From positions 126,232,001-126,296,000 of the forward strand of contig OX597819.1 of assembly GCA_951406725.2 (NCBI GenBank): 64,000 bases of DNA. The letters are read 5' to 3'. This document shows, one piece after another, positions 57,064-57,147 of the stretch. A program made the translations under genes and the position numbers. Each line of letters opens with the position of its first letter. Positions within the stretch are counted from its first letter, which is position 1. A model generated the notes under the pieces. The model was not told the origin of the DNA and did not search any database. It saw nothing but the letters and a program-made list of their open reading frames with translations. Source of the DNA: Octopus vulgaris (lineage: Eukaryota).

Positions 57064-57147
57064 CTTTCGACACATGTTTCGAAAATTCCACTGATACTAT
57101 TCAAAAGAATAAATGCTATAAACAATGCAATCTTCTCCTCAGGAAAG
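57064..57147 (-). ncRNA. Type I hammerhead ribozyme motif (family F element, about 57028-57350)
   Basis: Minus strand reads ctttc-CUGAGGA-gaagatt...aattttc-GAAA-c-atgt-g-UC-gaaag, with canonical GUC triplet. (TA)n on both sides of the element. Confidence 0.82.

What the first reader, a model, noticed from the sequence alone, without database searches (positions are those of the whole stretch)
57064..57147. Second family F hammerhead: core conserved, surroundings diverged
Compared with 26324, stem I (ctttc/gaaag), the core, gaaga at the base of stem II and gaaacatgtgtY-gaaagtaaa are retained, while N7 (U vs G) and the stem II loop differ completely. This is the pattern expected from selection on ribozyme structure. 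It has a GUC triplet, making it the best activity candidate in the window.
Basis: partly seen in the sequence, partly recalled or inferred. Interest (0 to 1): 0.7.

Follow-up and report, generated by a model that had tools for sequence, protein, structure and literature searches.

The report
Hammerhead end of Penelope-like retroelement
The hammerhead ribozyme motif is real, but it is the cut-short end of one of over a thousand copies of a known kind of jumping gene and likely cuts poorly on its own; the unusual part is that this family lacks the cysteines thought to aim such elements at TA repeats, yet still lands in them.

Summary
The type I hammerhead at 57147-57064 (minus strand) is real. 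It is the ribozyme in the terminal repeat (pLTR) of a young Hydra-type Penelope-like retroelement with at least 1,161 copies. The window copy is a 5'-truncated end plus an inverted tail, sitting in a (TA)n tract. Full-length copies carry a 775-aa telomerase-like RT/GIY-YIG ORF. The motif at 26324 belongs to a sister family (65% protein identity, synonymous sites saturated).

Core and stems are conserved with compensatory changes, so selection acted on the transposing lineages. Individual copies mutate evenly, core included. Stem II is a conserved extended helix, not a fully diverged loop. Stem III is 2 bp and palindromic, so cleavage likely needs a dimer or protein; it is untested.

Unusual points: the linker cysteine cluster present in 29 of 29 homologues is absent, yet 30 of 30 sampled ends abut (TA)n; the tail is about 150 bp; the commonest subfamily has a U4C core. 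The scan reported this kind of element before on other DNA.

The parts
57064..57147 (-). Type I hammerhead motif: stems I, II, III and complete catalytic core
57136..57142 (-). Core C3-A9 (CUGAGGA, N7 = G)
   Evidence: sequence
57081..57135 (-). Extended stem II (57135-57123 pairs with 57093-57081) and its internal hairpin/loop
57069..57080 (-). G12-A15.1, 2-bp stem III with self-complementary octamer, GUC triplet; predicted cut 3' of C57069
   Evidence: octamer self-duplex -6.0 kcal/mol
57058..57154 (-). Outer extension of stem I (57154-57150 with 57062-57058); C-G pairs in the sister family, U-A here
57030..57234 (-). 5'-truncated 3' end (3' UTR/pLTR) of the Penelope-like element, 97-99% identical to other genomic copies
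57231..57354 (+). Inverted copy of most of the element's ~150-bp tail, joined to the body through a 4-nt overlap at 57231-57234
57001..57028 (.). (TA)n target tract at the element's 3' end
57355..57372 (.). (TA)n target tract at the end of the inverted tail
26324..26406 (+). Hammerhead of the sister family (core CUGAUGA, GUU triplet), also a truncated pLTR end

Best explanation
The motif is the hammerhead carried in the terminal repeat of a young, high-copy Hydra-type Penelope-like retroelement, and the window holds a truncated insertion of its 3' end that is likely inactive and evolving neutrally. Shown: the full element is pLTR(hammerhead)-tail-ORF(RT + GIY-YIG)-pLTR, about 2.9 kb; copies end at one of two sites about 150 nt apart; both ends abut (TA)n; the window copy is an inverted tail joined to a truncated body. 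Inferred from known PLE biology: the enzyme nicks AT-rich DNA, primes reverse transcription at one of the two internal AU-rich sites of the RNA, and stops early or switches template through short microhomology. Inferred for the ribozyme: in tandem transcripts of full elements, two hammerheads likely pair through their palindromic stem III (possibly helped by the element's protein) and cut slowly after N17. Selection has kept this fold in master elements, but cleavage is probably not needed for each insertion.
For: Copies: 1,049 and 1,161 exact pattern hits against 0 for the reversed controls; 41 of 43 listed matches at 98-100% over 160-161 nt. Architecture: L063 and L194. Intact 778-codon frames at 3 places read. 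Model pLDDT 88.9; top structural matches are telomerase RTs, Z 17.6, rmsd 4.5, 311 aligned. GIY-YIG E 0.006 in the sister family. DKT, YRDD, CxxC, CxH and no CCHH as in the Hydra clade. Covariation: 90.3% of cells paired against 35-52% for slid controls. Private mutations are not depleted in the core. The only shared loop III change, seen in both families, makes the octamer perfectly palindromic (-6.0 to -7.0 kcal/mol). Literature: metazoan PLE hammerheads showed no monomer activity and low multimer activity (PMC4209133); one was protein-assisted and dispensable for insertion in vitro (PMC11167929).
Against: No cleavage data. Shared variants avoid the core only non-significantly (1/22 vs 31/255 columns, p = 0.49). 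The number of double-changed pairs is reached by 103 of 500 shuffles, most changes follow the single family split, and the 15 rows were hand-picked from 169 core-anchored copies. No pile-up of 5' ends at the cut site: 1,104 of 1,161 copies keep the 4 upstream bases. The commonest subfamily has U4C (499 vs 290 exact copies), often with a G-U pair at 10.1-11.1, which also fits relaxed selection. Pfam does not recognise the 775-aa protein. Two Hydra features are not met: CxCX5C and exact RWK.
Confidence: 0.85

Rival explanations
1. The hammerhead is vestigial in this family. The fold persists for another reason (protein binding or positioning of RT start sites) and catalysis is decaying.
For: The youngest copies (98-99% identical to an intact element) carry U4C, G10.1-U11.1 and GUA together. 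No excess of ends at the cut site. Hammerhead mutants did not affect insertion in vitro for PAc (PMC11167929).
Against: The shared changes fall at N7, at N17 (always C, U or A, never G) and at U4C, reported to lower activity in vitro yet permit viroid infectivity (passage in PMC3088659). The other 10 core positions show no shared change in either family. An unrelated Hydra-type family in the same genome keeps the same core.
Confidence: 0.2
2. This particular copy is a functional, locally selected ribozyme acting on a host minus-strand transcript.
For: Complete core with GUC; only 2 differences from the family majority over 196 nt, neither in the core.
Against: 290 copies share its exact 25-nt core segment, so intactness reflects youth. 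It has no tandem partner in the window: only 2 such motifs, on opposite strands 31 kb apart. The monomer fold is predicted at about 2%. No host exon was identified.
Confidence: 0.04
3. It is a non-coding retrozyme unit (tandem hammerhead repeats giving circular RNA).
For: Type I hammerhead with a short palindromic stem III, as in metazoan retrozymes; two near-tandem short copies exist (L207/L208).
Against: Homology upstream runs continuously into the RT-endonuclease ORF, with scattered truncation points from 0 to 1,450 nt. The repeat unit is 2,863 bp and coding.
Confidence: 0.03

Closest known systems
Hydra clade of C-terminal EN+ Penelope-like elements, e.g. Hydra-1_Obim (Craig et al. 2021, PMC8557442; seen: abstract, passages, section 11, supplement part 2 and search passages)
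   Same: Single RT + C-terminal GIY-YIG ORF; DKT, YRDD, CxxC and CxH motifs, no CCHH; hammerhead near the 3' end; (TA)n targets; inverted truncated copies; unit under 3 kb for this family.
   Different: No CxCX5C linker cluster (Asn-rich stretch instead); RWL for RWK; stem II insert about 55 nt, against 4-10 nt loops in the published Hydra table; tail about 150 bp against 30-40 bp; sister family 3.5 kb. Hydra-1_Obim has a different protein and hammerhead by eye; it was not aligned.
Metazoan PLE hammerheads with short palindromic helix III (Cervera and de la Pena 2014, PMC4209133; seen: parts 1-2 of 4)
   Same: Type I; helix I about 5 bp; larger than usual helix II; G10.1-C11.1; palindromic 15.2-16.2 and loop 3; mostly solo truncated copies; pairs on opposite strands or about 3 kb apart.
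   Different: [quoted passage not shown]
Poseidon_Ac (PAc) of Anolis (Frangieh et al. 2024, PMC11167929; seen: parts 1-2 of 4)
   Same: Two alternative 3' ends that define a tail; AT-rich targets; hammerhead upstream of the ORF.
   Different: Different clade; here the ORF starts about 250 nt downstream of the hammerhead, not inside it, and the two ends lie about 150 nt apart.
Rfam RF00163 Hammerhead_1
   Same: All model positions 1-45 matched; core and three stems.
   Different: 25.6 bits, below the gathering score of 34, with a 51-nt insertion in stem II.

Membership tests
Type I hammerhead ribozyme | Core C3 U4 G5 A6 N7 G8 A9, G12 A13 A14, A15.1-U16.1, H17 | tested here: met
Type I hammerhead ribozyme | Three helices, helix I open, supported by covariation | tested here: met
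   stems I and II show double changes; stem III is invariant, so uninformative
Type I hammerhead ribozyme | Rfam gathering score | tested here: inconclusive
   25.6 of 34 bits, E 1.7e-4, with a long stem II insertion
Type I hammerhead ribozyme | Self-cleavage 3' of N17 | not testable with these tools
   No assay; only contigs, no raw RNA reads, were available
EN+ Penelope-like elements | Single ORF with telomerase-like RT | tested here: met
EN+ Penelope-like elements | C-terminal GIY-YIG endonuclease | tested here: met
   IY..YIG motif with downstream R and E in the sequence; PF01541 E 0.006 (below cut-off) in the sister family; 4 of 77 aligned homologues match at E 0.01. Not tested by fold search.
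EN+ Penelope-like elements | pLTR tandem structure, inverted truncated copies, optional tail | tested here: met
Hydra clade | DKT in place of DKG; CCHH absent; CxxC and CxH in the endonuclease | tested here: met
   against section 11
Hydra clade | RWK N-terminal motif | tested here: inconclusive
   RW present as RIRWL; the third position also varies among homologues
Hydra clade | CxCX5C linker motif | tested here: not met
   Absent in both sister families; present strictly in 24 and with wider spacing in 5 of 29 homologues. Filed as a derived Hydra-type variant, not a plain member.
Hydra clade | (TA)n insertion preference | tested here: met
   30 of 30; 99 of 109; background 338 of 5,000
Hydra clade | Phylogenetic placement within the clade | tested here: inconclusive
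   Quick tree of 33 rows nests the family among cysteine-bearing relatives (SH-aLRT 99/89), but it has a midpoint root, no other PLE clade and no published sequence
Non-LTR retrozymes | Short non-coding tandem units, each with a hammerhead | tested here: not met
   Unit is 2.9 kb and coding

The most novel reading that the evidence does not exclude
This octopus-type lineage lost all four cysteines of the linker proposed to steer Penelope-like elements to microsatellites, yet targets (TA)n almost perfectly. Targeting would then come from pairing of the nicked (TA)n primer with AU-rich reverse-transcription start sites on the element's RNA, just downstream of the hammerhead, together with an AT-preferring endonuclease. 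Its three natural hammerhead variants (CUGA/GUC, CCGA/GUC, CCGA/GUA), with intact ORFs in the family, form a ready series for asking whether PLE hammerhead activity matters.
Probability: 0.35. Interest if true: 0.55.

Novelty: new variant of a known kind. Interest (0 to 1): 0.3.

Why it matters
The hammerhead itself is ordinary: PLE terminal repeats are known to carry them, and this copy is one of many. The value lies in the family. It appears to be a natural counterexample to the idea that the cysteine linker explains microsatellite targeting in C-terminal-endonuclease PLEs (hypothesis restated in PMC8557442). It also offers intact ORFs with progressively altered hammerheads, which makes the open question of what PLE hammerheads do testable. 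I found no paper on this family in 6 searches; Repbase, Dfam and subscription journals were not searched.

Tried and rejected
Whole-window Rfam scan: the top 150 of 445 rows shown were microsatellite-driven miRNA matches and the hammerhead was not among them.

Shuffle z-score of the bare motif was unremarkable (z -0.93). With flanks included, the extended stems form.

Cut-site pile-up: at most 57 of 1,161 copies lack the 4 upstream bases. Of the 7 such places among the first 100 listed, 3 (2 loci) start exactly at the cut, but through a GAAA microhomology that also explains a junction 12 nt upstream; 4 are point changes or small deletions. Not evidence of cleavage.

Expression: no RNA holder listed on record. 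Contigs of runs guessed to be RNA cover the element, often with frameshifts, and cannot show ends. Not used as evidence.

A conserved hairpin downstream of the hammerhead was not predicted in 13 aligned copies.

Single-sequence AlphaFold model was unusable (pLDDT 34). Pfam and PDB sequence searches missed the single protein. The fold search did not test the endonuclease part. The careful tree did not finish, so the quick tree was used. Ambros and Flores 1998 was not held and is cited only through a passage of PMC3088659. No earlier scan note matched this DNA or protein by sequence.

Full report
Observation. The minus strand at 57147-57064 carries a complete type I hammerhead: stem I CUUUC/GAAAG, core CUGAGGA, GAAA, a 2-bp stem III closed by AUGU, and GUC with C17 at 57069. 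Rfam Hammerhead_1 matches all 45 positions at 25.6 bits (E 1.7e-4 on 171 nt; gathering score 34) with a 51-nt insertion in stem II. A strict descriptor finds exactly this motif and 26324 in the window, and none in 100 second-order Markov windows. The stem II region does not differ completely: both motifs fold a long interrupted helix in the same register, and stem I has an outer extension.

What it belongs to. The window lies in a 2.8-Gb genome; the closest named proteins are from Octopus and Argonauta, so I infer an octopus-like host. Of 43 listed matches to 161 nt around the motif, 41 are 98-100% identical over 160-161 nt. Exact patterns give 1,049 and 1,161 hits against 0 controls. Comparison with 60 loci shows the window insertion is (TA)n, an inverted tail (57354-57231), a 4-nt overlap, a truncated body (57234-57030), then (TA)n. 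Longer copies show an inverted partial repeat, pLTR with hammerhead, tail, ORF and second pLTR, with a unit of 2,863 bp. Three copies read have an uninterrupted 778-codon frame. Pfam misses the protein, but a 77-sequence model (pLDDT 88.9) matches telomerase RTs best (Z 17.6, rmsd 4.5, 311 aligned). The C-terminus has the GIY-YIG pattern. This is a Penelope-like element.

The 26324 motif has its own copies at 86-99% identity and lies about 500-600 nt downstream of a related endonuclease ORF. The two families share 457 of 701 aligned residues, and 99 of 137 fourfold-degenerate sites differ. They are old sister families, each recently active, not two diverged copies of one insertion.

Selection. 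Between the window motifs 11 of 11 core positions are identical. That has probability 8e-7 at the synonymous background and 0.004 at 60% identity (post hoc). On 15 representatives picked by hand from 169 distinct core-anchored copies, 90.3% of cells pair against 35-52% for slid controls, and 6 pairs change on both sides. That count is reached by 103 of 500 shuffles, and most changes follow the family split. In copies found by protein search alone (29 of 30 and 26 of 30 aligned), private mutations hit the core as often as the rest (p 0.65 and 0.13). Shared variants occur at N7, at N17 (never G), in loop III (toward a perfect palindrome in both families), and once in the core, U4C. The depletion of shared variants in the core is not significant alone (p 0.49). 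Selection therefore acted on transposing lineages, and inserted copies drift.

Likely activity. Predicted for the 100-nt window motif: stems I and II mostly formed (0.72, 0.76), stem III 0.03, full fold 0.018, and a competing hairpin that pairs G12 with C17 at 0.29; for 26324 the competing hairpin is 0.00 and the full fold 0.006. The stem III octamer self-pairs at -6.0 kcal/mol. Cervera and de la Pena (PMC4209133, parts 1-2 of 4 read) found no monomer and low multimer activity for such motifs. Frangieh et al. (PMC11167929, parts 1-2 of 4) found a protein-assisted hammerhead that was dispensable for insertion in vitro. Here, 5' ends do not accumulate at the cut. The U4C subfamily outnumbers the window's subfamily 499 to 290, includes the three intact frames read, and its diagnostic letters appear in contigs of three differently labelled organisms. 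U4C is reported to lower activity in vitro but permit viroid infectivity (passage in PMC3088659). My reading: a weak, dimer- or protein-dependent ribozyme in full elements, and an inert passenger at this locus.

Classification and the unusual feature. DKT, YRDD, CxxC/CxH, no CCHH and (TA)n targets match the Hydra clade of Craig et al. (PMC8557442; abstract, passages, section 11 and supplement excerpts seen). The CxCX5C linker does not. Of 154 stored proteins, 29 passed a filter for length, RT and endonuclease motifs. All 29 have the cysteine cluster (24 strictly, 5 with wider spacing read by eye), as do 30 of 30 copies of a third family in this genome. Both sister families have an Asn-rich stretch instead, and a quick tree nests them among cysteine-bearing relatives (no outgroup). 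Yet 30 of 30 copies (the first 30 of 1,161 places, chosen only by a 25-nt internal pattern) end at (TA)n, as do 99 of 109 terminal ends in the earlier loci, against 338 of 5,000 random positions. The cysteines are therefore not needed for this preference. Both 3' ends fall in AU-rich stretches of the RNA that could pair with a (TA)n primer; this mechanism is inference. A caveat: the model folds residues 636-646 into strands (pLDDT 75-79), so a zinc-free form of the module may persist. The tail is about 150 bp, against the 30-40 bp described.

Novelty. The hammerhead is a known kind in a known setting, and earlier notes of this scan describe Hydra-type hammerhead ends in octopus-like genomes. 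Six literature searches found no description of this family or of linker loss. Also seen: part 1 of 5 of bioRxiv 10.64898/2026.07.22.740005, whose supplements are closed and could bear on invertebrate PLE hammerheads. Verdict: new variant of a known kind, interest 0.3.

Noticed in passing
L169 (and L159-L188): A third, very young Hydra-type family with the canonical CNCKNESSC linker, many intact 727-codon frames, and a minimal hammerhead with a very short stem II; a natural control for the linker question.
   Followed up: partly
window 26550-26700: The tail of the 26324 copy is interrupted by a TA-rich array that other copies of its family lack.
   Followed up: partly
L189-L192, L129-L158: In the sister family the RT-endonuclease linker has expanded into an Asn/Ser-rich low-complexity tract of variable length, with poly-Asn runs.
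   Followed up: partly
window 51750-53800: Broken non-LTR retrotransposon on the + strand; 52398-52820 matches RVT_1 at E 6e-16.
   Followed up: partly
window 13910-14180, 19800-20130, 58990-59310: Three copies of a long near-perfect inverted repeat (MITE-like or fold-back element), 87-91% alike.
   Followed up: no
window 37820-38240, 41100-41330, 42620-43030, 43930-44170, 46680-46920: Dispersed SINE-like repeat with about 184-nt tandem duplications; no canonical hammerhead found in it.
   Followed up: no
window 57880-58190 and 57435-57592: Two fold-back elements directly beside the insertion.
   Followed up: no
L194:1599/4286: Contigs from three runs share one opposite-strand joint within the element, probably one particular inverted insertion present in those samples.
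   Followed up: no
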